A stretch of DNA of 63,668 nt, the filler included, from Reclinomonas americana ATCC 50394 (Eukaryota): NCBI GenBank assembly GCA_048213135.1. It is 16 parts of 16 records of this genome, joined end to end, with 100 filler letters (N's around TTAATTAATTAA, not from the genome) between each part and the next. Parts side by side here need not be neighbours in the genome. Positions count along the whole stretch, not along the records: positions 38,429 to 46,407 come from AFZH01021643.1; positions 46,508 to 51,079 come from AFZH01021644.1; positions 51,180 to 57,997 come from AFZH01021645.1; positions 58,098 to 59,812 come from AFZH01021646.1; 12 more parts are not named here. One strand, 5' to 3'. Of the stretch, positions 10,477-59,916 are shown one piece after another. The position numbers and the translations under genes were made by a program. The notes beneath the pieces are model-generated. The model had not been told where the DNA came from. It made no database searches and saw only the letters and a list, made by a program, of their open reading frames with translations. Numbering within the stretch: position 1 is the stretch's first letter; every line of letters begins with the position of its first letter.

Positions 10477-10577
10477 GGTGACCGTCTCGACAATGAAGTT
10501 TACATTGTTTGTAATTTTGGCGCCAGAAGATGTTTCAACAGTTTCTTTCAGTGCACTGTCTGTGTGTGCGTGCACAC

Positions 10578-14213: not shown

Positions 14214-14260
<47 letters not shown>

Positions 14261-38258: not shown

Positions 38259-38889
38259 GTTTGGCACGCAGACAGACACCACCACTCCATGCGTGGCTGC
38301 TTCCATTAAGAGTTCTCACACTCATCTTNNNNNNNNNNNNNNNNNNNNNNNNNNNNNNNNNNNNNNNNNNNNTTAATTAATTAANNNNNNNNNNNNNNNN
38401 NNNNNNNNNNNNNNNNNNNNNNNNNNNNGAAGAAGAGTGTTGCAGTGAGCGCAGCCGAAGGGAGGGAGGATGAAGAGGGGAGTGGTGGGCATTAGATGAT
38501 GCCGATGACCTGAACTGGTGGTGGTGGTGTTTTTTATACGTCCCCTTCTCCTTTTTTTTGCTGAGGCCGCGATATTTGTGCAGAAAACATCTCTTTTTCT
38601 ATTTTGCCTACCTGTCTGGTACCGTTCTGCTTTTGTGTTTCTTCTTCTTCTTCATTTGTCTTCTTTCCGCCGTTCCCCCTTCGTCTTCTGCTTGTGCTCC
38701 TTATGCTGTATACATTTTGTCTATCTCTTTTTCGTCTTCGTCTTGCTTGCATGTTTCGTGCGGATTCCAGGGTCGTCGAACTGCTGGGCGGCGTCGCGTG
38801 GTCTTCCGATGTTTGTGTTTGATCCCTGTTTGCTTGCCACTGATTCATCTGTAAAATCCGGGGAAGAATGCCACACTGCGCGCGTACAT

Positions 38890-40297
38890 TTATCGCTTCT
38901 TGATGCATTTTAGTGAGCCGTCGTCTCCGCATTTCCACGCCGACACGCTGCCCTCAAAGTGCGCCGCGTAAAAGTCGGCCGTGCTGCAATTGCAGACGAT
39001 TGTCAGCCTCCGGCATACTTCAAAGACGTATGCACGGACAGTGTCCGTCTCACCTGTCGGTCGACGCCGGAGCCACCCACGTTGTATTGCCGTCGGTAGC
39101 GGTGTCGGCCACCGACATGCACTCTCCCGTCTGCAAGTTCCACCGCCGAATCGAGTGATCGTTGCCACAGCTGATGAGTCTGCGTGTTTTCCGACACTCA
39201 GCACCAGCAACAACACTCCGTCTCCGATGTATCGGTGCGGCAAGGCGACGCAACTCTTGTTGTGAGGAACCGACCAAGCAGACGCTGTTTACGGCCTGTG
39301 TGTGACCTCGCAGCATGCGAACCATGGATTTCGTGGACCGCCGATCCCATATCTGCCGCGCACCACAGTTTGTCTTTGTCTCTCTCTCACACACACAAGC
39401 ATCCCTCATACCCGGCCACTCACCCGTATCTCGCACGAATCGCCATCAAACCCATTGCTGCCGGTGACAAACGTGTGGCCATCGTCGGTGACCGCAATGC
39501 AGGTGGCAAACTGCACGTATCCGCCGTAATCGCGCACCATGTCCAGCGTGCGCGTATCCCACTCACGAACACGCAGATCCTCCGCCGTCTGCAGCACCAT
39601 CGACGGCTCCGCCGGCACCGGCGCCATCGATCGCACCAAGTTCAGCGGCAGCTCGTTCTGTCGCAACAGCGCCTGCGTCTCCACATCCCACACACACAGT
39701 CGCGCATCGCGCGATCCCGACATCACATGCGTGTCGCCATCGCACAGCACCGCGTCGTTGACAGAGGCGCGATGCGGACCCGTCATACGACAGGCCTCCT
39801 TCATCTCGGGATCCGCTCGTCGCCATCCTCGCACAGACCGATCGCGACTGGCACTAAACACCATTTGCAATCGCGTCGAGAAGCGAACCTGTGATCGCCG
39901 CATCGAGTGAGCCCTCCTCGTGCAGCACAACCGTTGAATGAAGTAGAAGAAACACGCGCACGAAACTCGATTGACATCACTGGTGTGACCGGCCCACTGT
40001 CGCACAATGTCGCCATCGACCCAGTCGTACATCATCACCATCTGCAACGCTCGTTCAGCATGAGGGAGAGAAGAGTGTGTGTGTGTATGAGCGTTGCATG
40101 CACACCTTATCCGCGCCTCCACTGATGAGCGTCGATGGCGAGTCGCCCTGACACACACAGAGACACGGAAGACCACCAGCGTGCAGACGATCCGTTGCAG
40201 TGGCGTTGGAGGGAGACAACTGACCGTTTTCATCGCCACCAAGGCCACTGTGACGCGGCGAGGGCGCAGACTGTTGACGATGCAGGCACTGACCCAT
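38890..40297 (-). CDS. WDR31: WD40-repeat protein, WDR31 orthologue, with an MGQC N-terminus (possible myristoylation/palmitoylation)
   Basis: FSASRDRSV, SGSRDARLCVWDVET, NLV..VPAEP..LQTAEDLRVREWD, DGHTFVTGSNGFDGDSCEIRIWD, GHTQAV follow the WDR31 pattern. Confidence 0.8.
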
Positions 40298-40489
40298 GGC
40301 TCTCACACTCCCTCACACGCTCACTCACAAGACGATCTTATCTCAACGACACACACGCAGGACGAACGCGATGCCACCTGCAAGCCACACACACGCACTG
40401 GCGCTCTCAAAGTTAGCGAGTAGAGTGCTTGCTTGCTGCTCACACTTGAGCTTTTTCTTGAGGAACGGCGATGGCGACGGTGGCAAGTC

Positions 40490-41278
40490 ATGAACGACGG
40501 AAGGTGTGTGTCCTGTGAGCAGTTTCGTTGTCGCGATGCGTCGTGTTTGTGAGCCGGTGTGCTCGTGCTGCTGCTGCACTGACAGTGATGGGTGCATGAC
40601 ATATGGTCGCGCTGCGTTGACGTATGTAGCTGGCGCACTGGTTACGCACTTTTCTCCTCTTTCTCTCGCGCGCGTCTCTCACTCTCTCACGCGCAGTTTG
40701 CTGCTGGTTGGTGGTGGTGGCTGAATGCGTTCATCGCCTCTGCACTGGCCACCGCAAGTGACGCCTATCATGTGCCCTTTGTACATTGGCTGCCGGCGGT
40801 GGCGGCAACACTTGGTCTTCTCATGTTCGTTTTATTGTCTCTTTGCTGCTCTCTTTCTGTGTGCGTGACTTGGTGTGCGCGTGTGTCACAGGTTGAACTT
40901 GTTTGTACACAAGGGCGTCATCTGGACTGGTGACGACGCCGATCGAGCGCCCTTTGCGCGATTCTGGTTCCTCATCTCGCTGGTGGTCTCGTTCCTCAGC
41001 GTCTTCTTTGCAGGTGTGATGACTTGTGAGTGTGAGTGAGTGTGCAAGGTCTCTGTCTGACCACCTCTCTGCAGTGTACATCACGATCGATGTGTACTCG
41101 GCGGGCACGGGCGACAACAAGCCACCGTCGTCTGTCGGGGTGGCGCTCATTATGCAAAACATCTTGATTGTCATCAGGTGCGTGGCCTGTGACGAGGCAC
41201 AGCGTCGGTGAGCGAGCTCATGTGTGTACCTGCAGCGGCCTGGTGCTCTTCTATGCCAAGCCTGTGCCAGAGTGGTGA
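40490..41278 (+). CDS. Vps68/TMEM50 (UPF0220) small 4-TM protein
   Basis: Spliced product ..YVAGAL|FAAGWWWWLNA..FVHWLPAVAATLGLLM|LN..ARFWFLISLVVSFLS..GVALIMQNILIVI|SGLVLFY. The start is uncertain. Confidence 0.82.
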
Positions 41279-41376
41279 CGAGAATCTGCATGCGTGAACG
41301 GTGCTGTCGCTCGCGGGCGCCTGATCAACGGTGCGCGCGCGAAGAGAGATCACGGGCCCTGCTTCATTCTGCGGGT

Positions 41377-44300
41377 CTACATTACGTACAGACTGGCGGC
41401 GAAGACAATGTCGCGCTTCACCAGCGCACTCGTCTCCTCCATCTTGGTAAAGAGTGTCGTGTCGCCGACCACACGTGCAGCCTTTTTGATTTCACGACAA
41501 GTCTGGTCCAACTGGATGATGGAGCGCACAATCGTGCCCTCCTGAATGTCGGTGAGCTTGCAAATGTCGGCGAATGGCTGCGGGGGGACGCACACACTGT
41601 CAGTCGACAAAAACAACAAACCATCTACAGGAGAAACACAAACCGTGCCCTTGGCCCACTCGTATGCCACCTCCATGAGTCCAAAGCGCAGCGATTCACG
41701 GGCATAGTCCTCCGGATTGGTGTCGACTGTCGCGAAGAGTGAAACACTGTGATTTTGCACTTGTCGGCATTCGCCTACTCACCTCCGCATTCCTTCTGGA
41801 TCTGACCGAGCACCTTGGCCAAATCAATCAGACGGGCCTTGGCCTGCGCAATCATGTCATCAGTAGCAGCACACACACATCACATGCACCACGCCTTTGA
41901 CGCACCTCCTGCAGCGTCTCGGTCAGCGTCGGTTCGCCCGTCTCGCCCTTCTCCTGGCACACCAGGCACGACAACACAGAGGCGATCTCCGGCGGCTCCA
42001 GAGTCGTCAAGAAGTTTTCGAAGATCATTTCTGTCAGGATGAGCTCCTCGGCCGTGTTAAGCTCGGCCGCCACTCGACCCTTCAGATGCACGATGCGATC
42101 CTGATCCACATAGTTCATGCGCTGCAGCAGTCGCACGCGGCACTCGAATTCCTGCATCACGAACAACAACCGTCAGAGCTCACATCCATGCAGAAAGGCA
42201 GACGCATGCAGATACACACACACCGGCATCAGCTGCAAGTTGGCGTCCGATAGAGCATGCTGGATCTGTCCAATCTTTTGCTGCAGTCGCTTGCGCTTGC
42301 TCATGCCCGTGTACTGCTCCGGCAGCTTCGGGCACTGTGAACACTTGGAGGTGCGCAACAGCGATGCCAGGCTGTTGCGCTGCGTGAACAGCTCCGAAAA
42401 GTCCATGTCCGTGATCTTGTAGTCCTGCATCGCACACACGCTCTCTCAACACCACCACCGATCTTCCACAGATAGACAGAGCGACATCCCCCGCCACTGA
42501 CCTTGACGGGATGGAATGCCGGCACACCCTCCTCACCGGCCTGCGCCCACATCTCCGCCAGTTCATTCGCCACACGCACAATGTCTGCTCGGCGCGGCTC
42601 AAAGTCCTCGCCCGACGCGTGCTTGATGCGCTGCTTGGTGATCGACACGATGCTGGCAAACGGCAGTGCCTCCAGCAATCCGCGTTCTTCCGGCGGTCGG
42701 ATTTGCACCGTAGAATAGTGCGGCAGGCCGCACAGCGTCGGCTGCGGGGGTAGGGATGTCAGAGCACAGCAAGTGGAAAAAACAAACAGTATCAAGACGC
42801 ACCGCCAATAGGTCCACGGGCTGATACGGCCGCAGCCACACGGCGACAAACTTTTCTGGCGGCGCCGCCGACGATGACGGCAAACTCATGCCGGTGGATG
42901 ACAGAGAAATGCCGGCAGCACGTGCGACGCGCGAGTGAAGAATGCAGGCCAGCGTGAGGCCGCACTCCATCGAGCGCGCCACCACCACACGCCCAGGCGT
43001 CAACTGCTGCAGGGCGCTCTTGCCACGCAGCGCCGTCGCACGCAACTGCTCGTCCATGTTCACAAATGGCTGTGACACAAGATAGGATGAGAACGGAGAG
43101 CAGTGGTACGGGAGACATTTTGATCAATGGACGCAACAGCATGCAGCTCGTAGAAATTGTCAATGTCGGGCTCGCCAAAGATGCAGTCCACGTCGCTCAT
43201 GGTGTGCAAAATCTCCTGTCCACGCCGCAAAATGTCTTGCGAGTCCGGCGCCAGACGCTGCACGTGGAACTCGCCAAAGCTGCGCTTGATCATGTCCTCA
43301 ACACGGAAGTCCTCCACACGCAACAAGTTGAGAATCATGTTGTACGTGAGGCGGAACTGACTCTCCAGCTTTTGCGCACGTCCGAGGATCATGCGTGTAA
43401 TGGTGGCGGACTCTGGTACCTGTAAGCGCGGTGAGCTCCGCGCATGAAGGCAGCATGCCCTTTTGCACAAAAAAAGACAAACCTCTGTCCAGCAGCCGAT
43501 GATGACCGTGCCGACTGTGTCGAGTCCACGACGACCGGCACGACCACTCATCTGAATGTACTCGCCCGCCTGCAGATCGCGGTGCTGGCGACCGTCGTGT
43601 TTCCGCAGCGAGTTGAAGACGACAGTGCGCGTCGGCATGTTGACGCCCATGGCAAACGTTTCGGTGGCGTACAGCACCTTGACGAGGCCACGCGAGAACA
43701 AAATCTCCACAATCTCCTTCACGATCGGCAACAGACCGGCGTGATGCACACCGAGGCCACGTCGCAGCAGGTCGCGCATGCGCACAATCTGCGGCAGCTC
43801 GCGGTCCGGCGCACGCAAGCGACTCACACTCGTGTCGATAATATGAGTGATTTCGCTCTTCTCCGCACCCGTCGTCAAATTGATGGCGGTCAGCGAGTTC
43901 GCAATGGCCTCGCATCGCTTGCGCGAAAACGTGAAGACGACCACCGGCATCAGCTCCCGTTTCTGCAAAAAGTTGACCATCTGAATCCACTCGTTGCTGC
44001 AGGTAACAAAATCACGCAGCGGTGAGCACTGTGTGCCAAGCACAGCACAACAGACAACTCCCCGCGTAGCAATCACCGTTCAGTCTGCTCCTTGGCTGCG
44101 CCGCTGCCGGTGCGCAGAGCCGACGACTTGGCCTCGCGGTCGTGGAAATACTTGCTGGCGTCGCGGTAGCCCTGCAGTTGGAACGCGCCGGCGTGGTCGA
44201 CGACCTTGAATGTTTGGCCCTTGACGTACAGGTAGTGTTCGAGAGGCACCGGTCGACGGTTGGTGCCCACCACGAAAATGTTCTTCTTTTTCGTGCGACC

Positions 44301-46407
44301 CACCCAGTCGGCAAACTGCAATGCAAGACGCAGAAACATGAGTCGGCATGCAAGGGGAGAAGGAAAGGAAGCTAGCCAGCGCACCTCAAATGCGTTGGGC
44401 ACCGTGGCCGAGAGCATGACAATGTTGATGTGCGGCGGCAGCATGATAATGACCTCCTCCCACACGACGCCACGGTCCTGGTCGTTGACGTAGTGCACCT
44501 CGTCGAAAATGACCCACTCGACATCGCGCACCATGTCAGCGCCGCGGTACAGCATGGAGCGCAAAATCTCGGTCGTCATGATGACACAGGCTCCAGTCGG
44601 GTTGATCTGCACGTCGCCCGTGAGAATACCTGCACCGTCGTCGTCGTCGGCGAGAGATGTTAGATGTATGTGCTGACGCGCGGCACATCAATGCAACCAA
44701 GGTACGCACCGACATCGCCAAAGCGGTTCTTAAAGTCGCGGAACTTTTGGTTCGACAGCGTCTTGATGGGCGACGTGTAAATGGCCTTGGTCATGTGCTT
44801 CTGCGACAGCGCAATGGCGTACTCGGCGACCACCGTCTTGCCGGCCGATGTGTGCGCCGCCACAAACACCGACTCGCCGTTCTCCATGTGGTACACGGCC
44901 TCCTTCTGGAACCAATCGAGCTCGAACGGGAACTCCATGGCCATGTTGGGCACCAGCGTGCGGAAGTGCGTCTGCGAGAGGGGGAGAAGGGGAGTGATGA
45001 GGATGCAACGAAAAATGGAGTCTTCCTCTGTTCTGCCTCACCATGTCCATGCGCTCCATGACGGCCCACGTCTTCCTCTCCGAGTCTTGCTTGCCGTCGC
45101 CCGACCCGCCACCGGCGATCGCGGCAGCCTTCTCGCGCATCTCTTGCTGGCGCTTGAGACGCGCCAGATCCGACACCTCCGTCACCGCGAAAATGTCGTC
45201 GATGGACACGCCGGCCGAGGGCGCTTCCCTGAAATCCAACACCTCCGCATCCTCCGGCAGCAGCGGTGCGGCAGCTGAGGCGCCTCCAGCGCGACGTGAA
45301 CCCGAGGCCACCGACAGAGCACCGCTGGCCACGGCACGCGGTTGACGCACGGGCAGAGTGCGGGCGTCGAGTTCGGGGTCGCGAGGAGCCACAAAGCCAG
45401 GATCACGGAGGCCCAGTTCGATGAGTTCTTGCTCCGCGCCGCTGGCAAAAATCTGTGGGAAATCCCGTCAATGAGTCAATAGAGAAGGGTGACGCCAAAC
45501 GGGAAGCGCACGCACATCATCCAACGTGATTTGCACGCTTTGCACTGTGCGGGTTGCAAGCACAGTTGAGCGCCCATACACCATTACTTCACCCCTACAT
45601 AAACACGTATACACGCAACCTGGCGGCTCGACAGCATCCCCTCGCTTGCCAGGTGCCGGAACCGCGCCACTGCGAATGGCGTCGAGGTACTGGCGCAGCA
45701 TGCTGGACTTGTTGGAACCGATGGACAGCAACTCGGTGGTCGCCGGTGCCGCCGACCGCGCACTCAAGTCGATTCCCTCGCTCCATCCATGCGGCGTACT
45801 CAGCAGCGACGCGCCACCGCCATTCAACGCGTCAATGAACACACGCGCATCGGCAAGCTCCTGCTCCGTCGGCGGTGGCGGAGGCTCCTTGTCAATGCCG
45901 CCCGGCTGGAACGGTCGAATGCCGCTGCCGCCCGTCACAAACGAGTCCAGTGAGCTGTACGGCCGGTGCAGCGACGACGCATCATCCTTGTCGATCTCCA
46001 CCTGAGCCAGCTGCATGTTCAAAACAGAAGAAGACGCAACGTTTTCGCGATGCGAGAGACAACACACCAGCTTGGGTCCACGCAGCTCGCCTGTGAGCTC
46101 ATTGCGGTCGACATCGATCTGCAGCAAGTGCGGCGTCGACTTGACCTTTAACAGTGTGTCGCTGTGCATGGACAACGAGGTCAGCAGCAGCACAAGAGAG
46201 AGACAGAGAAGAGCCAAACTCAACAGCGCCAAATCGCGCGGAATGGCCGGCTGATAGCTGTTCCCCGCGGGAAACATCACCGGGCTCAACACATCACGCA
46301 AGTGCGCCGCCGGCAACACACTCTCACACAGTTGCGTGGTCAGGTCCTCACTCACAGCAAACTCAGGCTCATGCTGCGACCAAAACACAATCAACACAAT
46401 GCACACA
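41377..46407 (-). CDS. SKI2: SKI2 DExH RNA helicase (exosome cofactor), copy A, apparently intact; first exon lost in the gap
   Basis: Ski2_[65 protein letters not shown]; arch; [29 protein letters not shown]. Confidence 0.95.
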
Positions 46408-46558
46408 NNNNNNNNNNNNNNNNNNNNNNNNNNNNNNNNNNNNNNNNNNNNTTAATTAATTAANNNNNNNNNNNNNNNNNNNNNNNNNNNNNNNNNNNNN
46501 NNNNNNNTTGCAAGCAACACGCAAGCAGAGGACAGAGGACGACTTCGTGGAACAAAGA

Positions 46559-47337
46559 ATGCGACGCGCGTGGCATCGCAGTGCGCACTGTGGCTGGGTG
46601 AGCTCACTGGCGACCACACGCGACAGTCAGTTGCTTGTCTCTGGTGGCGGTGGCGAGGACACTGTGCGCGTGTGGAGTGTGGCCAGTGGCGAGCAAACGC
46701 ATGCGTTTCACACACCGCACACGGGCACTCTGTGCGTGGCAGTGTCGCCCGACAGTCAGCGCGTGGTCGCGGGGTGTGGCGACTGTGCTGTGCGAGTGTG
46801 GTCGTTGCCTCTCCTCACGGAGAAGCCGCGAGTGCTGGTGGGGCATAGTGCGTCGGTGCATGGCGTGGCGGTGACGGAAGATGGACTGCGTGTGGTCTCT
46901 GGAGGCGCGGATGCTGCTGTGTGTGTGTGGCTGCTGGCCAGTGGTGAGCTGCTGTGTCGATATGCCAGTCGTGCGGGTGTGCGATGCGTGGCGGTCAGTC
47001 CCGACAGTCGATTCGTGGTCAGTGGTGGAGGTGGTGGCTGTGTGGCGGTGCACTCGCTGGTCGATGGCGAGGTGCGGTGGTTTGAGGGGCACACGGACAC
47101 GGTGCGATCGGTGGCGGTGACTCGCGATGGGCGGTTCGTGGTGAGCGGAGGCAGCGATTGCACGGTGCGAGTGTGGTCGGTGGCGAGTGGGCGGCTGGAG
47201 CGACTGTTCGCGCGGCACACGGATGGCGTGCGATCGGTGGCGATCTCGGCCGATGGGCATCACGTGTTGAGCAGCAGTCGGAGCAAGACGACGCGATTGT
47301 GGGCGTTGGCGACGGGAGGTGGAGTGCTTGGTGGATC
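46559..47337 (+). pseudogene. Intronless WD40 gene, copy 1, 3'-truncated at GTGGATC with a 5-nt deletion near 47315
   Basis: WD repeats GHSASVHGVAVT and GHTDTVRSVAVT. It diverges from the intact copy (58434) after GTGGATC. Confidence 0.75.
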
Positions 47338-47722
47338 TGTGTTGCCGTCACAGCTTGGCGAAGAAGCTGGAGTTAAATTAAAGGCGCCAAGAACGACAAT
47401 GTTGACCCGCCAGTTCACAAACCCGATGCCGTGGCTTCATTGATTACTGCGTGACTACTTTGTATGTGATGCAGTGCGATGGCATAAAGGCTCGTGGGAG
47501 GGAAAGGGAGAGGAAGCAAGGGCGTTCCAAGGTTGCTGACACCTATCTCGTGGCATTGTCGTGAGCCAGTCGACTGGAGGAGTGCTTGAAACAGCGAACG
47601 GGTAAAATAGAGAGAAAAGACGAACCAACGACAAACTCCAAACCGAGAGACGCCACAGCCTCGCGCCGCACGCGTAAGCGACTGTCCGGCGATCTCAATC
47701 CTTCCTCAGGGCAAAGGCAACA

Positions 47723-48733
47723 TCACCGCCCTCTCCGTCGCTTGCCGCATATCTTCACGGGCTGCAGCCCCTCTCCACAATTCGGACACCGCTTCTGGTT
47801 TCGCCCACGCGAATCATCCTCGCTGCAACTGGTGCATGCTACACGCTTGCACGCGCTGCATGTACCGGCAATCTTGCCAAGCGAGCAGTCCTTGCAGTAA
47901 TGCTCCGAGCATTGTTGGCACACTGCCATCGACCGCGCACACTCGTCGTTGCCGCAGACCATCAGCGAGCAGCTGTCGCACTGAATCCACGTCGACACGT
48001 GCTCGTGCGCGGGCACGCAGTGCTTCTTACATCTGATTTTCTCGCACACATTGCACTGCACCAGCAGGCCCATGCACAACAGCTTCCATTCCACAGCTGT
48101 GCCACGTGGGTCTTTAGCAAGACACTGGCGGCACACGCGCAGAAAGCGACATAAACGTTCTCCGCGTTCGACGTCACCAGGGCACCCAGCGGGTCCACCC
48201 TCCACCATGTCGGCGACCGTCTTGGGCTCTTTCATGCCACACAAAACGCATCTGATGCGTGATTGCGAGAAAAGCAAACGAGCTCTCGGCTCGCACAGCC
48301 GACGGCAGGCGGTGGAGACGCGCAAGAGAGTGACCAAGCCGGTCATGTCGATATACGGCAGCAAGTGACGCAGCAGAACATCGTCCGGGAGGAGTGCAAG
48401 CCGGCCCAAATTGCGGGAAGCGCCAGCCCCCGCGGCCGTGGTGGTAATGGCTGCACCTGAGGGGACAGCCGTGCCAACGATAGGGTTGTCGTTGGGGAGA
48501 GGAGCAAGCTGGTCCATGATGTGAGGTGCGTCAGTGTCGGCAGGCGCAGTGGTGGCCAAAGAATTCAACGACGTCGGGTCGTCCGTGATGCCCGTGGGTG
48601 TGGCGATGAGGAGGACTGACACGTCACATGGGTCACGAGGGGCGCCGATGCCGGCGGCCGCAGAGGCGGCGGTAGTACATGAGGAGTCGGCCGTGTCAAC
48701 GACAGAAGGGTTGTCGTTTGGGAGGACTGACAT
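47723..48733 (-). CDS. Intronless F-box plus Cys-rich (multi-CxxC zinc-binding) protein
   Basis: F-box LALLPDDVLLRHLLPYIDMTGLVTLLRVSTACRRLC, followed by many CxxC pairs and a basic tail GKRRRGR. The N-terminus has PNDNP repeats. Confidence 0.75.
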   Translation of the reverse strand: MSVLPNDNPSVVDTADSSCTTAASAAAGIGAPRDPCDVSVLLIATPTGITDDPTSLNSLATTAPADTDAPHIMDQLAPLPNDNPIVGTAVPSGAAITTTAAGAGASRNLGRLALLPDDVLLRHLLPYIDMTGLVTLLRVSTACRRLCEPRARLLFSQSRIRCVLCGMKEPKTVADMVEGGPAGCPGDVERGERLCRFLRVCRQCLAKDPRGTAVEWKLLCMGLLVQCNVCEKIRCKKHCVPAHEHVSTWIQCDSCSLMVCGNDECARSMAVCQQCSEHYCKDCSLGKIAGTCSACKRVACTSCSEDDSRGRNQKRCPNCGEGLQPVKICGKRRRGR

Positions 48734-48941
48734 GTCGAGTGTCGGCGTCGCAGGGGGCGCCGCTGACTGGCGGTGGCGGAATGTGAGGGGTCGGCCGTGA
48801 CGACGATGATGAGAGTCAAACACACAGTATGCGTGAGTGCGCTTGGGTGCGTGTCTGCGCGGGAGCACAAGAGGTTTGCGTCGTCGACTGTGACAAAAAG
48901 CAAAATGGCGCGAGCGAGCGAACCGGACACCAATATTTGAC

Positions 48942-51018
48942 GCGTTGCAGCAGTCGCAAGTGGCGGCACTCGAATTCCTGCATCGCAAGCGACAACCGTC
49001 AGAGCCCACATCCACGCAGAAAGGCAGACGCATGCAGATACACACACACCGGCGTCAGCTGCAAGTTGGCGTCCGACAGAGCATGCTGGATCTGTCCAAT
49101 CTTTCTGCAGTCGCTTGCGCTTGCTCATGCGTGTACTGCTCCGGCAGCTTCGGGCACTGCGAACACTTGGAGGTGCGGAGGAGCGATGCCAGGCTGTTGC
49201 GCTGTGCGAACAGCTCCGAAAAATCCATGTCCGTGATCTTGTAGTCCTGCACCGCACACACTCTCTCTCAACACCACCACCGATCTTCCGTGTAGACAGC
49301 GCGACATCTCCGGCCACTCACCTTGACGGGATGGAATGCTGGCACACCCTCCTCACCGGCCTGCGCCCACATCTCCGCCAGTTCATTCGCCACACGCACA
49401 ATGTCTGCACGGCGCGGCTCAAAGTCCTCGCCCGACGCGTGCTTGATGCGCTGCTTAGTGATCGACACGATGCTGGCGAACGGCAGTGCCTCCAGCAATC
49501 CGCTCTCTTCCGGTGGTCGGATTTGCACCGTGGAATAGTGCGGCAGGCCGCACAGTGTCGGCTGCGGGAGTAGGGATGTCAGTGCACAGCCACTGGAAAA
49601 AACAAACAGTTTCTCAAGGCGCACCGCCAACAGGTCCACGGGCTGGTACGGCCGCAACCACACGGCGACAAACTTCTCCGGCGGCGCCGCCGATGACGAT
49701 GGCAAACTCATGCCGGTGGATGACAGAGAGATGCCGGCAGCACGTGCGACGCGCGAGTGAAGAATGCAGGCCAGCGTGAGGCCGCACTCCATCGAGCGCG
49801 CCACCACCACACGCCCCGGCGTCAACTGCTGCAGGGCGCTCTTGCCTCGCAGCGCCGTCGCACGCAACTGCTCGTCCATGTTCACAAATGGCTGTGACAC
49901 AAAAAAGGATGAGAACGGAGAGCAGCAGTGCAGCGGGAGACATCTTCAAGACTGCACGCAACAGCATGCAGCTCGTAGAAATTGTCAATGTCGGGCTCGC
50001 CAAAGATGCAGTCCACGTCGCTCATGGTGTGCAAAATCTCCTGTCCACGCCGCAAAATGTCTTGCGAGTCCTGAGCCAGGCGCTGCACGTGGAACTCGCC
50101 AAAACTGCGCTTGATCATGTCCTCGACACGGAAGTCCTCCACACGCAGCAAGTTGAGAATCATGTTGTATGTGAGGCGGAACTGACTCTCCAGCTTTTGC
50201 GCACGTCCAAGAATCATGCGCGTGATGGTGGCGGACTCTGGTACCTGTAAGCGCGGTGAGCTCCGTGCATGAAGGCAGCATGCCCTTTTGCACGAAAAAA
50301 GACAAACCTCTGTCCAGCAGCCGATGATGACCGTGCCGACTGTGTCGAGTCCATGACGACCGGCACGACCACTCACCTGAATGTACTCGCCCGCCTGCAG
50401 ATCGCGGTGCTGGCGACCGTCGTGTTTCCGCAGCGAGTTGAAGACGACAGTGCGCGTTGGCATGTTGACGCCCATGGCAAACGTCTCGGTGGCGTACAGC
50501 ACCTTGACGAGGCCGCGCGAGAACAAAATCTCCACAATCTCCTTCACGATCGGCAGCAGACCGGCGTGATGCACACCGAGGCCACGTCGCAGCAGGTCGC
50601 GCATGCGCACAATCTGCGGCAACTCGCGGTCCGGCGCACGCAAGCGACTCACACTCGTGTCGATAATGTGAGTGATTTCGCTCTTCTCCGCTCCCGTCGT
50701 CAAATTGATAGCGGTCAGCGAGTTCGCAATGGCCTCGCATCGCTTGCGCGAAAACGTGAAGACGACCACCGGCATCAGCTCCCGCTTCTGTAAGAAGTTG
50801 ACCATCTGAATCCACTCGTTGCTGCAGGAAACAAAATCACGCAGCGGTGAGCACTGTGTGCCAAGCACAGCACAACTGACAACTCTCCGCGTAGCAATCA
50901 CCGTTCAGTCTGCTCCTTGGCTGTGCCGTTGCCCAAGTGCGTCTTCCTCGCCCAGTGCCACATCCAGTGCTCGCAGCGCAGTGCTGCAGGCCTCACTGAT
51001 CACAGGCGACGCGTACAT
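48942..51018 (-). pseudogene. SKI2: SKI2 copy B: internal deletion of about 2.4 kb, frameshifts, 3'-truncated
   Basis: Exon 1 is joined out of frame to the [11 protein letters not shown] region at about 50935 (GTGCG microhomology). Motif VI is altered to QVSGRAGRHG. There are two 2-nt deletions near 49105-49130 and no DSHCT domain. Confidence 0.88.
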
Positions 51019-51179
51019 TGCGATCTACATTGCAAGCAACACGCAGACGGAGAGGACGCAGAGGACGACTGCAGGAAGGNNNNNNNNNNNNNNNNNNNNN
51101 NNNNNNNNNNNNNNNNNNNNNNNTTAATTAATTAANNNNNNNNNNNNNNNNNNNNNNNNNNNNNNNNNNNNNNNNNNNN

Positions 51180-51520
51180 AGTCGATTTGTGGTCAGTGGT
51201 GGAGGTGGTGGCTGTGTGGCGGTGCACTCGCTGGTCGATGGTGAGGTGCGGTGGTTTGAGGGGCACACGGACACGGTGCGATCGGTGGCGGTGACTCGCG
51301 ATGGGCGGTTCGTGGTGAGCGGAGGCAGCGATTGCACGGTGCGTGTGTGGTCGGTGGCGAGTGGGCGCGCGGCTGGAGCGGCTGTTTGCGCGGCACACGG
51401 ATGGCGTGCGATCGGTGGCGATCTCGGCCGATGGGCATCACGTGTTGAGCAGCAGTCGGAGCAAGACTACGCGATTGTGGGCGTTGGCGACGGGGGAGGA
51501 GGTGGAGTGCTTGGTGGATC
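51180..51520 (+). pseudogene. WD40 gene, copy 2 fragment, frameshifted and 3'-truncated at GTGGATC
   Basis: Near-identical to copies 1 and 3, with a 4-nt insertion near 51366 and the same breakpoint as copy 1. Confidence 0.8.
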
Positions 51521-51864
51521 TGTGTTGCCGTCGCAGCTTGCAATTGGCGAACAAGCTCGAGTTAATTTAAAGGTGCCAAGAACGACATTGCCCAGTTCAC
51601 AAACCCAATGTCGTGGCTTCATTCATTACTGTGTGACTACTTTGTATGTGCAGAAGTGCGATGGCATAAGGGCTCGTGGGAGGGAAAGGAAGAGAGGAAG
51701 GAAGGGCGTTCCAAGGTTGCTGATGTCGTGAGTCAGTCGACTGGAGGGAGTACCTTGAAACAGCGAAAGCGTAATATAGAGAGAAAAGAAACAACAAACT
51801 CCAACCCGAGAGATCTAGACACCACAGCTTCGCGCCGCATGCATGAGCGACTGTCAGGCGATCT

Positions 51865-52824
51865 CTACCATTCGAATTCCTCAGAATCCTGGGCCCCCCT
51901 CAGTCGCTTGCCGTTCGATCTCACGGGCTGCAGCCGCTCTTCACACGTCGGACACACTTTCCAGTCTCGCCCGCATGGAGCATCCTGGCTGCATGAGATG
52001 CAAATGGCCTCCTTGCACATGCTGCATGTGCCGGCCATTTTTGCTGCCACTCTCGAGCAGGGCTTGCAGAAATGCTTGTGGCAGCTTCCACACTTCGTCA
52101 TCGACTCTGCGCACGGGTCACAGAACTTGTCGTCGCAGCCGTGGCACTCAATCCAAGGGTGCGCTTGCGTGCAACCGCGGTGCTTGGTGCATCTGGTAAT
52201 CTTGCACTTCTGGCACTCCTCCATATCGGCGAGCGTCACGCCCTCAATCTCTCTGGCGCCACATATTTCGCACGGAGTGGGCACGGGCACCGGCCGGCGC
52301 CGCGGTCTACGACTGACAAACCGAACCACGCGAGCGCGCGGCGCACGACGTCCCAATTGCCATCTACGTGCACGCCGCGTGTGCTGTTGACGAGCGGCCG
52401 CAGTGTTGGCGACGCCACCAGCAGCTGCAGGGGGCGAAACATCATGATCATCGGAGCTCGAGTGGACTGAAGACAAACTCATGTCGCCAGGGGCGCTGGT
52501 GCCAACGGCGGCCGTTGAGGCAGTGGTAGAGCGTGGGGGGTCATTCACACCAACGACAACAGGCTCATGCATGTGGCCATGTTGTGGGGGGACTGAAAGC
52601 ACGCTCTCGCCCGTGTCGCGATCGCGCGGGCCGTGAGGGCTGCCAGCACCGGTGGCCGCAGGGGCGGCGGCAGAGAGCGAGAGATAATCACTGCCAGGAA
52701 GAGGGCTGCTGTCGCGGGAGACTGAAATCATATCATCATGATCACCCGTGCTGACGTCGCTACCGCGCGGATCGTGAGCGACGGTGTCGGTACCGGTGGT
52801 GGTAGAATCTGGGGAGTCGGCCAT
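51865..52824 (-). CDS. Intronless Cys-rich protein, paralog of 47723-48733, lacking a recognisable F-box
   Basis: CEICG..TLADM..CQKCKITRCTKH..WIECHGC..CGSCHKHFCKPC..AGTCSMCK..CISCS..CPTCEERLQPV aligns with the Cys array of the first paralog. Confidence 0.72.
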   Translation of the reverse strand: MADSPDSTTTGTDTVAHDPRGSDVSTGDHDDMISVSRDSSPLPGSDYLSLSAAAPAATGAGSPHGPRDRDTGESVLSVPPQHGHMHEPVVVGVNDPPRSTTASTAAVGTSAPGDMSLSSVHSSSDDHDVSPPAAAGGVANTAAARQQHTRRARRWQLGRRAPRARVVRFVSRRPRRRPVPVPTPCEICGAREIEGVTLADMEECQKCKITRCTKHRGCTQAHPWIECHGCDDKFCDPCAESMTKCGSCHKHFCKPCSRVAAKMAGTCSMCKEAICISCSQDAPCGRDWKVCPTCEERLQPVRSNGKRLRGAQDSEEFEW

Positions 52825-53391
52825 GAAGACGATGGTAAAGCTTGAGAACACCGACAGTGAGTGTGTTTGGGTGTGTGTTCGCGCGCGAGAATTCGAGCGA
52901 GAGGAAATGGCAAACCGCCAAAATGGCGCGAGAGTTTGGCGGGAGACAAAGCTTCATGAATTCGTGTAAACTCCTCCAACTTGTCTGCCTTCACTCTGTA
53001 TGTAACGTTTGTGATGAGATTGCGCGTGCTCATGAGGAGTCAGTGCGCCGACGAGATGAGGAGTGGTGCGCGCTGCGACGGTCAGCCGGCGCCAGATCTA
53101 CGAGATCGAACTCCAATTGCAAGCCCACCCATGGGAGCGGTGTCTCGGTTATCACGCGTCAAGTGGTGCCGATGGGTGCTCCGAGTGAGACAGGTGCGGA
53201 TCAAACTCTTCTAGCACGTAGCTGGATTGCTGCTGAGCCTGTTTCTTGACCGCACGGACCAGTCGCCGATCAGTAGCGACTCGTTCAGGACCATCTGTGC
53301 TTGTTGCACCGATGAGAGACACACGTGGCAATCAGCAGCAAATGCGGATACGTGAACGCGGATGGAGGCATCCTTGCCAAAGCGGCTCGTT

Positions 53392-56300
53392 CTGTAACAG
53401 TCGCACGCGGCACTCGAATTCCTGCGCCACGAACGACAACGATCAGAGCCCACATCCACGCAGAAAGGCAGACGCATGCAGATACACACACACCGGCATC
53501 AGCTGCAAGTTGGCGTCCGACAGAGTATGCTGGATCTGTTCAATCCTTTGCTGCAGTCGCTTGCGCTTGCTCATGCCCGTGTACTGCTCCGGCAGCTTCG
53601 GGCACTGTGAACACTTGGAGGTGCGCAACAGCGATGCCAGGCTGTTGCGCTGCGTGAACAGCTCCGAAAAGTCCATGTCCGTGATCTTGTAGTCCTGCAG
53701 CGCACACACTCTCTCTCAACACCACTACCGATCTTCCGCGCAGACAGAGCGACATCCCCCGCCACTGACCTTGACGGGATGGAATGCCGGCACACCCTCC
53801 TCACCGGCCTGCGCCCACATCTCCGCCAGTTCATTCGCCACACGCACAATGTCTGCTCGGCGCGGCTCAAAGTCCTCGCCCGACGCGTGCTTGATGCGCT
53901 GCTTGGTGATCGACACGATGCTGGCGAACGGCAGTGCCTCCAGCAATCCGCTCTCTTCCGGTGTCGGATTTGCACCGTGGAATAGTGCGGCAGGCCGCAC
54001 AGTGTCGGCTGCGGGGGTAGGGATGTCAGAGCACAGCCACTGGAAAAAACAAACAGTATCAAGACGCACCGCCAATAGGTCCACGGGCTGGTACGGCCGC
54101 AGCCACACGGCGACAAACTTCTCCGGTGGCGCCGCCGACGATGACGGCAAACTCATGCCGGTGGACGACAGAGAAATGCCGGCAGCACGTGCGACGCGCG
54201 AGTGAAGGATGCAGGCCAGCGTGAGGCCGCACTCCATCGAGCGCGCCACCACCACACGCCCCGGCGTCAACTGCTGCAGGGCGCTCTTGCCACGCAGCGC
54301 CGTCGCACGCAACTGCTCGTCCATGTTCACAAATGGCTGTGACACAAAAAAGGATGAGAACGGAGAGCAGTGGTACGGGAGACATCTTGATCAATGGACG
54401 CAACAGCATGCAGCTCGTAGAAATTGTCAATGTCGGGCTCGCCAAAGATGCAGTCCACGTCGCTCATGGTGCGCAAAATCTCCTGTCCACGTCGCAAAAT
54501 GTCTTGCGAGTCCGGCGCCAGACGCTGCACGTGGAACTCGCCAAAACTGCGCTTGATCATGTCCTCGACACGGAAGTCCTCCACACGCAACAAGTTGAGA
54601 ATCATGTTGTACGTGAGGCGGAACTGGCTCTCCAGCTTTTGCGCACGTCCGAGGATCATGCGTGTAATGGTGGCGGACTCTGGTACCTGTAAGCGCGGTG
54701 AGCTCCGCGCTTGAAGGCAGCATGCCCTTTTGCACAAAAAAAGACAAACCTCTGTCCAGCAGCCGATGATGACCGTGCCGACTGTGTCGAGTCCACGACG
54801 ACCGGCACGACCACTCATCTGAATGTACTCGCCCGCCTGCAGATCGCGGTGCTGGCGACCGTCGTGTTTCCGCAGCGAGTTGAAGACGACAGTGCGCGTC
54901 GGCATGTTGACGCCCATGGCAAACGTCTCGGTGGCGTACAGCACCTTGACGAGGCCACGCGAGAACAAAATCTCCACAATCTCCTTCACGATCGGCAGCA
55001 GACCGGCGTGACGCACACCGAGGCCACGTCGCAGCAGGTCGCGCATGCGCACAATCTGCGGCAACTCGCGGTCCGGCGCACGCAAGCGACTCACACTCGT
55101 GTCGATAATGTGAGTGATTTCGCTCTTCTCCGCACCCGTCGTCAAATTGATGGCAGTCAGCGAGTTCGCAATGGCCTCACACCGCTTGCGCGAAAACGTG
55201 AAGACGACCACCGGCATCAGCTCCCGTTTCTGCAAGAAGTTGACCATCTGAATCCACTCGTTGCTGCAGGTAACAAAATCACGCAGCGGTAAGCACTGTG
55301 TGCCAAGCACAGCACAACAGACAACTCCCCGCGTAGAAGTCACCGTTCAGTCTGCTCCTTGGCTGCGCCGCTGCCGGTGCGCAGAGCCGACGACTTGGCC
55401 TCGCGGTCGTGGAAATACTTGCTGGCATCGCGGTAGCCCTGCAGTTGGAACGCGCCGGCGTGGTCGACGACCTTGAATGTTTGGCCCTTGACGTACAGGT
55501 AGTGTTCGAGAGGCACCGGTCGACGGTTGGTGCCCACCACGAAAATGTTCTTCTTTTTCGTGCGACCCACCCAGTCGGCAAACTGCAATGCAAGACGCAG
55601 AAACATGAGTCGCCATGCAAGGGGAGAAGGAGCGAAGAAGCTAGCCAGCGCACCTCAAATGCGTTGGGCACCGTGGCCGAGAGCATGACAATGTTGATGT
55701 GCGGCGGCAGCATGATAATGACCTCCTCCCACACGACGCCACGGTCCTGGTCGTTGACGTAGTGCACCTCGTCAAAGATGACCCACTCGACATCGCGCAC
55801 CATGTCAGCGCCGCGGTACAGCATGGAGCGCAAAATCTCGGTCGTCATGATGACACAGGCTCCCGTCGGGTTGATCTGCACGTCGCCCGTGAGAATGCCT
55901 GCACCGTTGTCGTCGTCGGCGAGGCGTTAGATGTATGGACTGAAGCGCTGCACATCATTGCAACCAAGGTACGCACCGACATCGCCAAAGCGGTTCTTAA
56001 AGTCGCGGAACTTTTGGTTCGACAGCGTCTTGATGGGCGACGTGTAAATGGCCTTGGTCATGTGCTTCTGCGACAGCGCAATGGCGTACTCGGCGACCAC
56101 CGTCTTGCCGGCCGATGTGTGCGCCGCCACAAACACCGACTCGCCGTTCTCCATGTGGTACACGGCCTCCTTCTGGAACCAATCGAGCTCGAACGGGAAC
56201 TCCATGGCCATGTTGGGCACCAGTGTGCGGAAGTGCGTCTGCGAGAGAGGGAGAAGGGGGGCGGTGAGGATGCAACGAAAAATGGGAGTCTTTCTCTGTT

Positions 56301-57893
56301 CTGCCTCACCATGTCCATGCGCTCCATGACGGCCCATGTCTTCCTCTCCGAGTCTTGCTTGCCGTCGCCCGACCCACCACCGGCGATCGCGGCAGCCTTC
56401 TCGCGCATCTCTTGCTGGCGCTTGAGACGCGCCAGATCCGACACCTCCGTCACCGCGAAGATGTCGTCGATGGACACGCCGGCCGAGGGCGCTTCCCTGA
56501 AATCCAACACCTCTGCATCCTCCGGCAGCAGGGGTGCGGCAGCTGAGGCGCCTCCCGCGCGGCGTGAACCCGAGGCAACCGACAGAGCACCGCTGGCCAC
56601 GGCACGCGGTTGACGCACGGGCAGAGTGCGGGCGTCGAGTTCGGGGTCGCGAGGTGCCACAAAGCCAGGATCACGGAGGCCCAGTTCGATGAGTTCTTGC
56701 TCCGCGCCGCTGGCAAAAATCTGTGAAGAAGCCCGTCAATGAGTCAACAGAGAAAGGGGACGTCAAACGGGAAGCACACGCACATCATCCAACGTGATTT
56801 GCACACTTTGCACTGCGCGGGTTGAAGGCACAGTTGAGCGCCCATACACCATTACTACACCCCTACATAAACAAGTATAGACACAACCTGGCGGCTCGAC
56901 AACATCCCCCCGCTTGCCAGGTGCCGGAACCGCGCCACTGCGAATGGCGTCGAGGTACTGGCGCAGCATGCTGGACTTGTTGGAACCGATAGACAACAAC
57001 TCGGTGGTCGCCGGTGCCGCCGACCGCGCACTCAAGTCGATTCCCTCGCTCCACCCATGCGGCGTACTCAGCAGCGACGCACCACCGCCATTCAACGCCT
57101 CGATGAACACACGCGCATCGGCGAGCTCCTGCTCCGTCGGCGGTGGCGGAGGCTCCTTGTCAATGCCGCCCGGCTGGAACGGTCGAATGCCGCTGCCGCC
57201 CGTCACAAACGAGTCCAGTGAGCTGTACGGCCGATGCAGCGACGACGCATCATCCTTGTCGATCTCCACCTGAGCCAGCTGCATGTTCAAAACAGAAGAA
57301 GAGGCAACGTTTTCGCGATGAGAGAGACAACACACCAGCTTGGGTCCACGCAGCTCGCCCGTGAGCTCGTTGCGGTCGACATCGATCTGCAGCAAGTGCG
57401 GCGTCGACTTGACCTTTAACAGTGTGTCGCTGTGCATGGGTAGTCAGCAGCAGCACAAGAGAGACAAGAGAGAGGCCAACTCAACAGCGCCAAATCGCGC
57501 GGAATGGCCGGCTGATAGCTGTTCCCCGCAGGAAACATCACCGGGCTCAACACATCACGCAAGTGCGCCGCCGGCAACACACTCTCACACAGTTGCGTGG
57601 TCAGGTCCTCACTCACAGCAAACTCAGGCTCATGCTGCGACCAAAACACAATCAACACAATGCACACACACACACAGCTCTGTGTGCAACCCACTCACCA
57701 GTCGCACAAGGTGCTTGTGCGTGTGCACTCGTCGTCGCGCACGCAGCTGCCCGCTCGCACCTCGTCCCCACTGCGCGATTTGCAGAGTGGGCAGACGACG
57801 TTGCGCGCCCTGTGCGTCTTCCTCGCCCAGTGCCACATCCAGTGCTCGCAGCGCAGTGCTGCAGGCCTCACTGATCACAGGCGACGCGTACAT
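53392..57893 (-). pseudogene. SKI2: SKI2 copy C: complete 5' part, 1-nt frameshift near 53962, GVHHAG changed to GVRHAG, 3'-truncated (no DSHCT)
   Basis: Colinear with copy A. It has ttccggtgtcgg where A has ttccggcggtcgg. Homology ends after [10 protein letters not shown], the same point as copy B. Confidence 0.85.
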
Positions 57894-57937
57894 TGCAAGC
57901 AACACGGAGAGGACAGAGGACGACTTTGTTTGCAGTC

Positions 57938-58733
57938 ATGCGACGCGCGTGGCATCGCAGTGCGCACTGTGGCTGGGTGAGCTCACTGGCGACCACGNNN
58001 NNNNNNNNNNNNNNNNNNNNNNNNNNNNNNNNNNNNNNNNNTTAATTAATTAANNNNNNNNNNNNNNNNNNNNNNNNNNNNNNNNNNNNNNNNNNNNTGT
58101 CGATTTGTGGTCAGTGGTGGAGGTGGTGGCTGTGTGGCGGTGCACTCGCTGGTCGATGGTGAGGTGCGGTGGTTTGAGGGGCACACGGACACGGTGCGAT
58201 CGGTGGCGGTGACTCGCGATGGGCGGTTCGTGGTGAGCGGAGGCAGCGATTGCACGGTGCGAGTGTGGTCGGTGGCGAGTGGGCGGCTGGAGCGGCTGTT
58301 CGCGCGGCACACGGATGGCGTGCGATCGGTGGCGATCTCGGCCGATGGGCATCACGTGTTGAGCAGCAGTCGGAGCAAGACGACGCGATTGTGGGCGTTG
58401 GCGACGGGGGAGGAGGTGGAGTGCTTGGTGGATCGGCAGCAGCCGTGGCCGGTCGCGTGTACCGCCGATGGACACTTTGTGGTGGTGGGTGCGACCGATG
58501 GCGGGTTGCATGTGTGGGCGACGCCGCTTGAGTTGATGCAGCGCGAGGTGGCGGCCGTGCAGTGTGCGTTGCTCGAGGTGCAGTCGATGCTTGACGACAC
58601 TGACGATGAAAGCGTGTGGTGTCTGCCCGAGATTGTGCTGCGGTGCTTCTTGGCGGAGGATGCACGACTCCGGTACCTGCGCGCCGAAGTCGACCTAGAG
58701 ATGCAACGCAATGAACCAGTGACTATTCTCTAA
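57938..58733 (+). CDS. WD40-repeat protein, copy 3, the only copy with the native 3' end (spans gap 57998-58097)
   Basis: MRRAWHRSAHCGWV start. The repeats continue past GTGGATC into VACTADGHFVVVGATDGGLHVW and a helical tail ending in TAA. Confidence 0.82.
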
Positions 58734-58853
58734 GCGTGAGTAACAACAAACAACGAAGCGGCCTTGCATTTTGCTTAATCAGCATTACAGATGAGCATAT
58801 TACAGCGAGCGCATGCACAACCTATTGCACCCAGATAACACGTCCCGCCACCA

Positions 58854-59768
58854 CTATGCGGGTACTTCATCCATCATGCGCGTTATCCGCTGAACGATCT
58901 CGTGGAAGTCGGGTCGTCGGTCGGGTTGCGATGCAATGCAGTCGTGCACGAGACGCGGGAATGCCGGATGAATTGAGGCGCCGGCTCCCGGTGGCAACTC
59001 CAGCCGCACCTGTGAACACCGGCAGTGAGCAACAGCAATGGCCTCGCCACAACAGTGGAAGAGAAACGCAACATTCTGGCGGACCATGGCCACCAACAGC
59101 TGAATTGGCTCGTATGAATCGAACGGTCGCAGCTTGGTGGCCAGCTCCCACAACACTGATTGGTAACAAGGCATGAGAGGTGGCAAGCAAGGACGAGACA
59201 TAACAACACACACGAACGCACCGACGCCATACGAATATACGTCTGCTTTTTCTGAATATCTCCGACCACGCAGCACCTCGGGTGCCATCCATTGCGGCTG
59301 GCGCACACAGCTCTTGTGAGCAACATGTAGATGCACACACACGACACGAACACACTACAACACTCACCGTCCCGATCGATGATGTCATGGTGCTGGAGGC
59401 CTTGACTCGTGACAAACCAAAATCGGCAATCTTCACACTCCAGTCCTCGCCCAGCAGCAAGTTGCCGGACTTGAAATCGCGATGCAGGATGGGTGGATCA
59501 TGTGTGTGCAGGCAGAAGAGTCCCTTGGCGGCACCGAGGGCGATGCGCAGCGCCACACGCGGTGTGATCAGCGATGGTGTGCCGGTGCCCGGGTCGAGCA
59601 CGTCAAATAGCGAGCCTCTGCGTGACATATATGGGCGGTGAGGGGAAGACAAAAAAGAAAGCATGCTGACTGACTGCGCACCGTTTCATGTACTCAGTCA
59701 CCATGGCAGGATATCGCGATTCTTGGCACATGCCCATGATGAGGAGGATATTGGGGTGGCGGAGGGCC
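58854..59768 (-). CDS. TKL (Raf/CTR1-like) protein kinase, C-terminal part (subdomains IV-XI)
   Basis: [89 protein letters not shown]. Confidence 0.92.
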
Positions 59769-59916
59769 CTGGTGGTGCATTCAAGTTAGCAAAGCACAGA
59801 CGGGGGAAGAGCNNNNNNNNNNNNNNNNNNNNNNNNNNNNNNNNNNNNNNNNNNNNTTAATTAATTAANNNNNNNNNNNNNNNNNNNNNNNNNNNNNNNN
59901 NNNNNNNNNNNNATCC

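What the first reader, a model, noticed from the sequence alone, without database searches (positions are those of the whole stretch)
41377..58733. Triplicated SKI2/WD40 block with a foreign Cys-rich gene cassette at each junction
Seen: the order is [SKI2 3' end] X E X' E' X'' [WD40 3' end]. X is the head-to-head SKI2 and WD40 pair lacking both 3' ends. E is about 47338-48941 and E' about 51521-53391. Both left junctions fall at the same base (GTGGATC|TGTGTTGCCGTC), and both right junctions fall just after SKI2 ..RLLQ. Only the outermost SKI2 (A) and WD40 (3) look intact. Inference: an intronless cassette was inserted with a multi-kb duplication of its target, then amplified by unequal crossover, with housekeeping genes as collateral repeats. 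The left end can be read as A|TC, compatible with a Helitron-type 5' end, but no CTRR terminus or transposase is visible.
Basis: partly seen in the sequence, partly recalled or inferred. Interest (0 to 1): 0.75.

Follow-up and report, generated by a model that had tools for sequence, protein, structure and literature searches.

The report
F-box gene inside duplicated housekeeping block
In an unidentified eukaryote, a fast-changing gene of the organism's own F-box family sits twice between repeated front halves of two neighbouring genes while the outer genes stay whole; this is a real but known kind of duplication, not a foreign cassette or a Helitron.

Summary
The repeat is real inside two contigs: WD40 fragment, cassette, SKI2 fragment, WD40 start. 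The left junction falls at the same base in both. The block is about 5.4 kb, and only the outer SKI2 and WD40 are intact. E is not foreign: it is an intronless F-box/Cys-rich gene of a family with at least 19 matches in this genome, and its ends occur nowhere else in the assembly. E' has lost the F-box and carries a decayed non-LTR retrotransposon piece at its right junction. Helitron features fail. Shared lesions near the junction point to one origin, most likely a DNA-level insertion that re-copied its target. Identity between the two units falls from 98% in the flank to 65% in the gene, so recombination with intact alleles refreshes the flanks while the gene diverges. A second haplotype scaffold shows one SKI2/WD40 pair and no cassette. 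The three-copy order crosses unsized gaps and a collapsed segment; E and E' as alleles on separate haplotypes stays open (about 25%). No reads were available. The scan noted a similar, much smaller insertion-duplication in a bacterium.

The parts
41377..46407 (-). SKI2 copy A, intact to its stop; its first exon lies in the gap
   Evidence: no amino-acid difference from the other haplotype in 503 codons
42090..42121 (.). Inferred original right breakpoint region in intact SKI2
46408..46507 (.). Assembly spacer (N44, 12 bases, N44) between contigs C6176 and C6177; same at 51080-51179 and 57998-58097
46559..47337 (+). WD40 copy B: start codon to left junction, 5-bp deletion just before the junction; holds the only assembled copy of 46618-46958
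47338..48913 (-). Cassette E: 385-base 3' flank, gene, 5' region ending at a 14-base motif shared with E'
47723..48733 (-). Gene E, 336 aa, intronless: low-complexity N-terminal extension with an internal repeat, F-box (about 48265-48406), Cys-rich region (30 Cys in all)
48914..48944 (-). Degenerate SKI2-derived edge at the right junction of E
48945..51012 (-). SKI2 copy B: 3' end missing, internal 2.44-kb deletion at about 50933, 7 amino-acid changes and 3 indels in 500 codons
51180..51520 (+). WD40 copy C fragment, 4-bp insertion, ends at the left junction
51521..52934 (-). Cassette E': 344-base 3' flank, gene, 5' region
51865..52824 (-). Gene E', 319 aa, open frame, F-box degenerate and a block of about 50 aa lost; Cys-rich C-terminal half kept
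52935..53386 (-). Decayed piece of an R2-like non-LTR retrotransposon (reverse-transcriptase region), two large internal deletions, 86% identical to a dispersed copy
53392..57893 (-). SKI2 copy C: start codon to right junction, 1-bp frameshift, 7 private amino-acid changes in 1,090 codons
57938..58733 (+). WD40 copy D, intact 3' end (interrupted by the spacer); first ATG 45 bases from the SKI2 ATG

Best explanation
One DNA-level event copied a 1.6-kb piece carrying an endogenous F-box/Cys-rich gene into this locus and re-copied 5.4 kb of the target (the front halves of SKI2 and WD40), giving X-E-X with both outer genes whole. Template switching during repair or replication, and single-crossover integration of a circle holding X and E, give the same product and cannot be told apart here (inferred). 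The cassette then diverged into lineages E and E'; E' gained a retrotransposon piece and lost its F-box (shown as differences, order inferred). Crossovers and conversions within X keep replacing the broken inner copies with sequence from working alleles and can add or remove units without breaking the outer genes; one such exchange placed E and E' in tandem on one haplotype, while the other haplotype has no cassette (inferred from the scaffolds). E most likely acts as an SCF ubiquitin-ligase adaptor whose zinc-binding Cys-rich part picks targets (inferred).
For: X-E-X order inside two contigs. Same left junction and shared 3' flank and 5' motif. One origin: 10 of 13 sites shared only by the two broken SKI2 copies lie within 650 bases of the junction (p 0.002), with a shared amino-acid change. 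Refreshing: 7 damaging changes private to copy C in the 502 codons nearest the junction, 1 in the next 588 (p 0.03). Identity between units runs 98, 91, 87, 74, 65, unalignable, 80, 93, 93, 97, 96% from left to right. Endogenous: 14 and 18 family matches; GC3 0.69 and 0.65 against 0.67-0.77 in the family and 0.70-0.75 in WD40; E's 5' region aligns with the start of a C89 paralogue (0 of 100 shuffles as good). DNA-level: no A-tail, and a candidate poly(A) hexamer about 100 bases inside the left junction. Second haplotype C7074-C7079, 95.6-96.8% identical, with intact SKI2 and WD40 and no cassette contig. F-box: 10 of the 18 listed rows that cover residues 1-48 are F-box proteins, at low Z of 2.9-4.3; a model with a stand-in Skp1 from another host scored 0.87 against a best control of 0.02, runs agreeing in at least 93% of contacts, partner pLDDT at least 86 (mark reached by 51 of 78 solved and 2 of 108 mismatched microbial pairs, 71 of 105 solved and 2 of 126 unrelated eukaryotic pairs). 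Like complexes are solved, so this shows likeness to F-box/Skp1, not that this copy binds. 18 of 20 Cys columns are kept between E and E', against 37 of 84 other columns.
Against: The segment 46618-46958 is assembled once though four paths need it, so the links across the gaps are unproven. Copy A is closest to copy C (97.3%), while B is equally far from both intact alleles (93 differences each); one WD40 site groups B with the other haplotype. The gap in the second haplotype is unsized, and contig numbers do not strictly follow scaffold order. The exact donor of E is not in the assembly, so junction microhomology cannot be tested. Pfam finds no F-box in 8 of 8 family members. Clustering of the 38 informative SKI2 sites is not significant by a runs test (p 0.08). 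E plus E' as a clade has only 80/83 support on long branches. Expression of E is untested.
Confidence: 0.6

Rival explanations
1. Same single origin, but each haplotype carries one cassette (X-E-X and X-E'-X). E and E' are deeply diverged alleles, and the scaffolder put both units on one scaffold.
For: Collapsed WD40 segment and unsized gaps. A is closest to C (20 of 38 informative sites), and one WD40 site pairs C with D and B with the other haplotype. All four SKI2 copies differ about as much as alleles do (95-97%). The assembly holds both haplotypes separately. Haplotype contigs placed side by side are a known error (PMC2864568, passages).
Against: B is no closer to the other haplotype's SKI2 than to A (93 differences each). 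The scaffold places B and C between A and D, and haplotypes 3-4% apart should let paired reads map to the right one (inference). A neighbouring WD40 site groups B with C.
Confidence: 0.25
2. The cassette is a reverse-transcribed mRNA inserted by the R2-like element's machinery with an unusually long target-site duplication.
For: E is intronless and about transcript-sized; a non-LTR element piece abuts E' in the same orientation. Long duplications occur with LINE insertions: one of 1,228 bp among 25 insertions (PMC2666801, passages).
Against: All family members seen are intronless, so this says nothing. No A-tail; the longest A run is 3. The candidate poly(A) hexamer lies about 100 bases inside the junction. 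E has no element piece and keeps more SKI2 sequence, so the piece in E' looks secondary. 5.4 kb is over four times the case cited.
Confidence: 0.09
3. The junctions are assembly chimeras.
For: Fragmented draft; no reads examined.
Against: The same left junction occurs in two contigs whose flanks differ by 9%, and lesions are graded with distance from the junction.
Confidence: 0.03
4. E is a foreign or mobile cassette, such as a non-autonomous Helitron.
For: No full-length relative in public protein sets.
Against: A family of the same genes lies elsewhere in the genome with host-like codon use. The ends occur nowhere else (5 matches, none new at the ends). No CTRR at either end in either orientation. 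Helitrons make no target duplication (PMC4778049, passages). 0 of 6 stretches around other family members show repeats on both sides.
Confidence: 0.03

Closest known systems
Cycle of templated insertion (PCAWG, PMC7025897; passages read)
   Same: A template from elsewhere is inserted and a segment of the host chromosome is re-replicated, which is the X-E-X layout.
   Different: Described as somatic events in cancer genomes. Here it is inherited, old enough for the cassette to diverge, and the donor is not found.
Insertion-duplication by single-crossover (Campbell-type) integration of a circle (recalled; named in earlier finding e1-3202726)
   Same: Same end product: insert between direct repeats of the target, with outer genes restored.
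   Different: Needs a circle that already joins X and E; no trace of it can be tested here.
Human RCCX module (PMC11563783; passages read; layout of the truncated inner genes recalled)
   Same: Tandem modules, broken inner copies beside intact genes, gene conversion and unequal crossover, three-module haplotypes.
   Different: In RCCX the variable genes belong to every module. Here the cassette exists only at junctions, so a one-block haplotype has none.
Lineage-specific, fast-turnover F-box families, e.g. Caenorhabditis nigoni neib-1 (10.1101/2024.09.11.612556; abstract and outline read)
   Same: Recent duplication, rapid change and presence/absence polymorphism of F-box genes.
   Different: The C-terminal part here is a Cys-rich zinc-binding region with no family match; positive selection and targets are not shown.
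False segmental duplication from haplotype divergence (PMC2864568; passages read)
   Same: Haplotype contigs can be placed side by side.
   Different: It cannot make the WD40-E-SKI2 junctions, which lie inside contigs; it bears only on the copy count per haplotype.

Membership tests
Helitron | 5'-TC terminus after a host A | tested here: inconclusive
   The ATC is also in the intact WD40 gene at this place, so it need not belong to the insert
Helitron | CTRR-3' terminus | tested here: not met
   None at 48850-48960 or 52880-52960 on either strand; none on the plus strand at 53330-53410; nearest on the minus strand at the left ends is about 75 bases inside
Helitron | Subterminal hairpin | tested here: inconclusive
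   Only weak folds in five terminal 50-mers, -4.7 to -9.7 kcal/mol, no shuffle control
Helitron | No target-site duplication | tested here: not met
   5.4-kb direct repeat; feature from PMC4778049
Helitron | Dispersed copies with shared ends | tested here: not met
   5 matches, ends only in E and E'
Cycle of templated insertion | Host segment re-replicated in direct orientation on both sides of the insert | tested here: met
Cycle of templated insertion | Insert copied from another place in the same genome | tested here: inconclusive
   Family at about 40% identity elsewhere and a weak 5' match to C89; no close donor
Cycle of templated insertion | Single event with template-switch junctions | not testable with these tools
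   Donor missing; a two-step route or circle integration gives the same product
Retrocopy with target-site duplication | Loss of introns relative to the parent | tested here: inconclusive
   Family members are intronless too
Retrocopy with target-site duplication | 3' A-tail at the junction | tested here: not met
   Longest A run 3 in both flanks; could have decayed
F-box protein (gene E) | Match to a curated F-box profile | tested here: not met
   No F-box family in Pfam for 8 of 8 members at E up to 1; Atlas F-box cluster at 0.85 is a lead only
F-box protein (gene E) | Three-helix F-box fold at the N-terminus | tested here: inconclusive
   Helices at 8-18, 21-30, 32-38 with pLDDT about 53; 10 of 18 rows on residues 1-48 are F-box proteins, Z 2.9-4.3
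F-box protein (gene E) | Docks on Skp1 | tested here: met
   Model only: 0.87 vs best control 0.02 with a stand-in Skp1; shows likeness to solved complexes
F-box protein (gene E') | F-box motif present | tested here: not met
   Region is diverged and partly missing in all three frames
RCCX-like modular copy-number locus | Intact outer genes, truncated inner copies | tested here: met
RCCX-like modular copy-number locus | Module number varies between haplotypes | tested here: inconclusive
   Second scaffold lacks cassettes, but its gap is unsized
RCCX-like modular copy-number locus | Exchange between modules and alleles | tested here: met
   Graded lesions and shared sites; runs test alone not significant

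The most novel reading that the evidence does not exclude
The locus is a selected, expandable slot for hypervariable F-box alleles: repeats made of the front halves of flanking genes let the cassette number move between zero, one and several without ever breaking the outer genes, and long-term balancing selection on the Cys-rich domain explains the deep divergence valley centred on the gene.
Probability: 0.12. Interest if true: 0.65.

Novelty: new member of a known kind. Interest (0 to 1): 0.35.

Why it matters
It is a clear inherited example of an insertion that re-copies its target, a pattern best documented in cancer genomes, followed by RCCX-like exchange. It shows one way a fast-evolving F-box family seeds new loci beside an essential gene without harming it. 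The graded divergence also warns that flank identity understates the age of such duplications. If the cassette is polymorphic and under balancing selection, the locus would make F-box target turnover testable in this lineage.

Tried and rejected
Sequencing runs: none was listed, so depth, junction reads and RNA were not examined. Homologue searches: no hit among 8,000 scored candidates of 185-590 aa; 5 weak hits to the Cys-rich part only among 1.84 billion representatives. Foldseek gave no match at E up to 0.001; the Cys-rich part was not folded alone, so its fold is left open. Weak sequence matches to RING domains were not taken as a RING assignment. Positive selection is not claimed: pairwise dN/dS is 0.6-0.9, dS is 0.5-0.7 by two methods but only 2 of 16 four-fold sites differ, and the better fit of a mixture model comes with implausible rates (31 and 466) that misalignment could also give. 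A recurring X-E-X mechanism was looked for and not seen in 6 stretches around other family members; one of them had only one flank, and one was built from contigs in assumed order. A hairpin at the shared retrotransposon edge was not found (z 0.35). Using scaffold sizes to bound the gap in the second haplotype failed because contig numbers are not strictly in scaffold order. Three translations and one GC3 value were out of frame and were redone; my notes give 5.9 kb and 2.9 kb where searches give 5.4 kb and 2.44 kb. Literature: ten searches were answered; none listed a description of this locus or protein family, but none named SKI2 and the library lacks most subscription papers. No supplements were read.
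Full report
What is in the sequence. The window is one scaffold of 16 contigs joined by 15 fixed 100-base spacers. Four contigs carry the finding: A (38429-46407), B (46508-51079), C (51180-57997) and D (58098-59812). A holds an intact SKI2 on the minus strand; the helicase core matches Ski2 at E about 1e-66 and Mtr4 at 1e-53. D holds the intact 3' end of a WD40 gene on the plus strand. B and C each read WD40 fragment, cassette, SKI2 fragment, WD40 start. So the tandem unit is shown inside contigs. The repeated block X spans about 5.4 kb. The left junction is at the same base in B and C. The inner copies are broken: WD40 by a 5-bp deletion in B and a 4-bp insertion in C; SKI2 by 7 amino-acid changes, 3 indels and a 2.44-kb internal deletion in B, and by a 1-bp frameshift and 7 private changes in C.

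The cassette is not foreign. E encodes 336 aa with 30 Cys; E' encodes 319 aa with 21 Cys. A search of the own genome gave 14 matches for E and 18 for a paralogue, 19 places with E', several of them haplotype pairs; many lie in tandem arrays and those inspected are intronless. GC3 is 0.69 and 0.65, against 0.67-0.77 in 13 family members and 0.70-0.75 in WD40. E's 5' region aligns with the start of a paralogue on C89 (0 of 100 shuffles as good). The cassette's ends match nothing but E' (5 matches in all). No full-length relative was found outside the genome.

What E encodes. The N-terminal motif reads like an F-box by eye (pattern recalled). Pfam does not confirm it in 8 of 8 members. In a structural search, 10 of the 18 listed rows on residues 1-48 are F-box proteins, at low Z. 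A model with a stand-in Skp1 from another host scored 0.87 against a best control of 0.02, with at least 93% contact agreement and partner pLDDT of at least 86; since such complexes are solved, this shows likeness only. The genome has Skp1 genes (4 matches). E' has lost the F-box and about 50 further residues but keeps an open frame and 18 of 20 Cys columns, against 37 of 84 other columns, so both genes were under constraint after they split. The most likely role is a substrate adaptor of an SCF ligase with a variable zinc-binding end; this is inference, and expression is untested.

The right junctions. In B, 31 bases beyond the clear match are a degenerate copy of SKI2 42090-42121: it was the best of 7,942 positions and at the collinear place, with a scoring chosen after inspection. 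They end next to a 14-base motif that E and E' share. In C this edge is replaced by 450 bases of a dispersed repeat (18 of 20 matches), which is the reverse-transcriptase region of an R2-like non-LTR retrotransposon, 86% identical to another copy and with two large internal deletions. The simplest order is an E-type junction first and a later insertion in the E' lineage.

One origin, then exchange. Of 13 sites shared only by the two broken SKI2 copies, 10 lie within 650 bases of the junction (p 0.002), and one amino-acid change is shared. Damaging changes private to C number 7 in the nearest 502 codons and 1 in the next 588 (p 0.03). The two intact alleles differ at 12.5% of synonymous sites and at no amino acid over 267 codons. 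Identity between the B and C units runs 98, 91, 87, 74, 65, unalignable, 80, 93, 93, 97, 96% from left to right. This valley fits an old cassette whose flanks are refreshed by crossover or conversion with working alleles. Such switches of ancestry along duplicated segments are described for human duplications (PMC3790853, passages). A runs test on the 38 informative sites was not significant (p 0.08). Positive selection on E is possible but not shown.

How many units per haplotype. A second scaffold, C7074-C7079, parallels the window from 27433 to 62205 at 95.6-96.8% and has an intact SKI2 and an intact WD40 3' end with no cassette contig. Its gap is unsized. The WD40 segment 46618-46958 is assembled once though four paths need it. 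B's start differs from the ends of B and C where they overlap, so B follows an intact SKI2, on either haplotype. The scaffold reading is three blocks against one; the alternative is two blocks each, with E and E' allelic. A is closest to C, and B is equally far from both alleles, which does not decide it. I put about 25% on the allelic reading.

Comparison with known systems. It works like a cycle of templated insertion, in which inserted segments return to the host chromosome and re-replicate part of it (PMC7025897, passages), or like single-crossover integration of a circle (recalled); membership cannot be settled without the donor. Its later history resembles RCCX (PMC11563783, passages), except that the variable gene exists only at junctions. 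It is not a Helitron: no CTRR end, a long target duplication and no dispersed copies. Retroposition with a long target duplication is possible but has no positive sign beyond the secondary element piece. Stretches around other family members show no repeats on both sides (0 of 6), so this is a single event, not a family habit.

Verdict. Real structure, partly misread. A known kind of rearrangement with a lineage-specific F-box gene as cargo and an unusually clear record of later exchange. Interest 0.35.

Noticed in passing
window 53386; L081 (C14) and L062 (C15917): Three of ten copies of the R2-like element begin at the same base in the reverse-transcriptase region (one of them 7 bases from a contig end). 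No stable hairpin there. Possibly a truncation hotspot or a short non-autonomous subfamily.
   Followed up: partly
window 4067-17475: A second tandem duplication (80-94% identity) of a large gene with repeated beta-rich units, with a unit boundary inside one contig; a related copy lies on C155.
   Followed up: no
window 57893-57938: The first ATGs of SKI2 and WD40 are only 45 bases apart, head to head, so each block duplicates a very compact two-way promoter region.
   Followed up: partly
window 48400-48810: The N-terminal extension of E arose by internal repetition of an about 100-base unit homologous to the paralogues' start region (score 64 vs shuffle maximum 37); E's homologous start codon is mutated and a later ATG is used.
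   Followed up: partly
L040 (C89:263981-267432): Three tandem family members and a broken fourth; two neighbours are 91% identical in the F-box half and much less so in the Cys-rich half.
   Followed up: partly
L053, L054 (C280, C231): A second Ski2-like helicase gene in two haplotype copies, 72-80% identical in motif regions; probably MTR4, not tested.
   Followed up: no
L098, L099 (C24, C712): A divergent second Skp1-like gene besides the canonical one.
   Followed up: no
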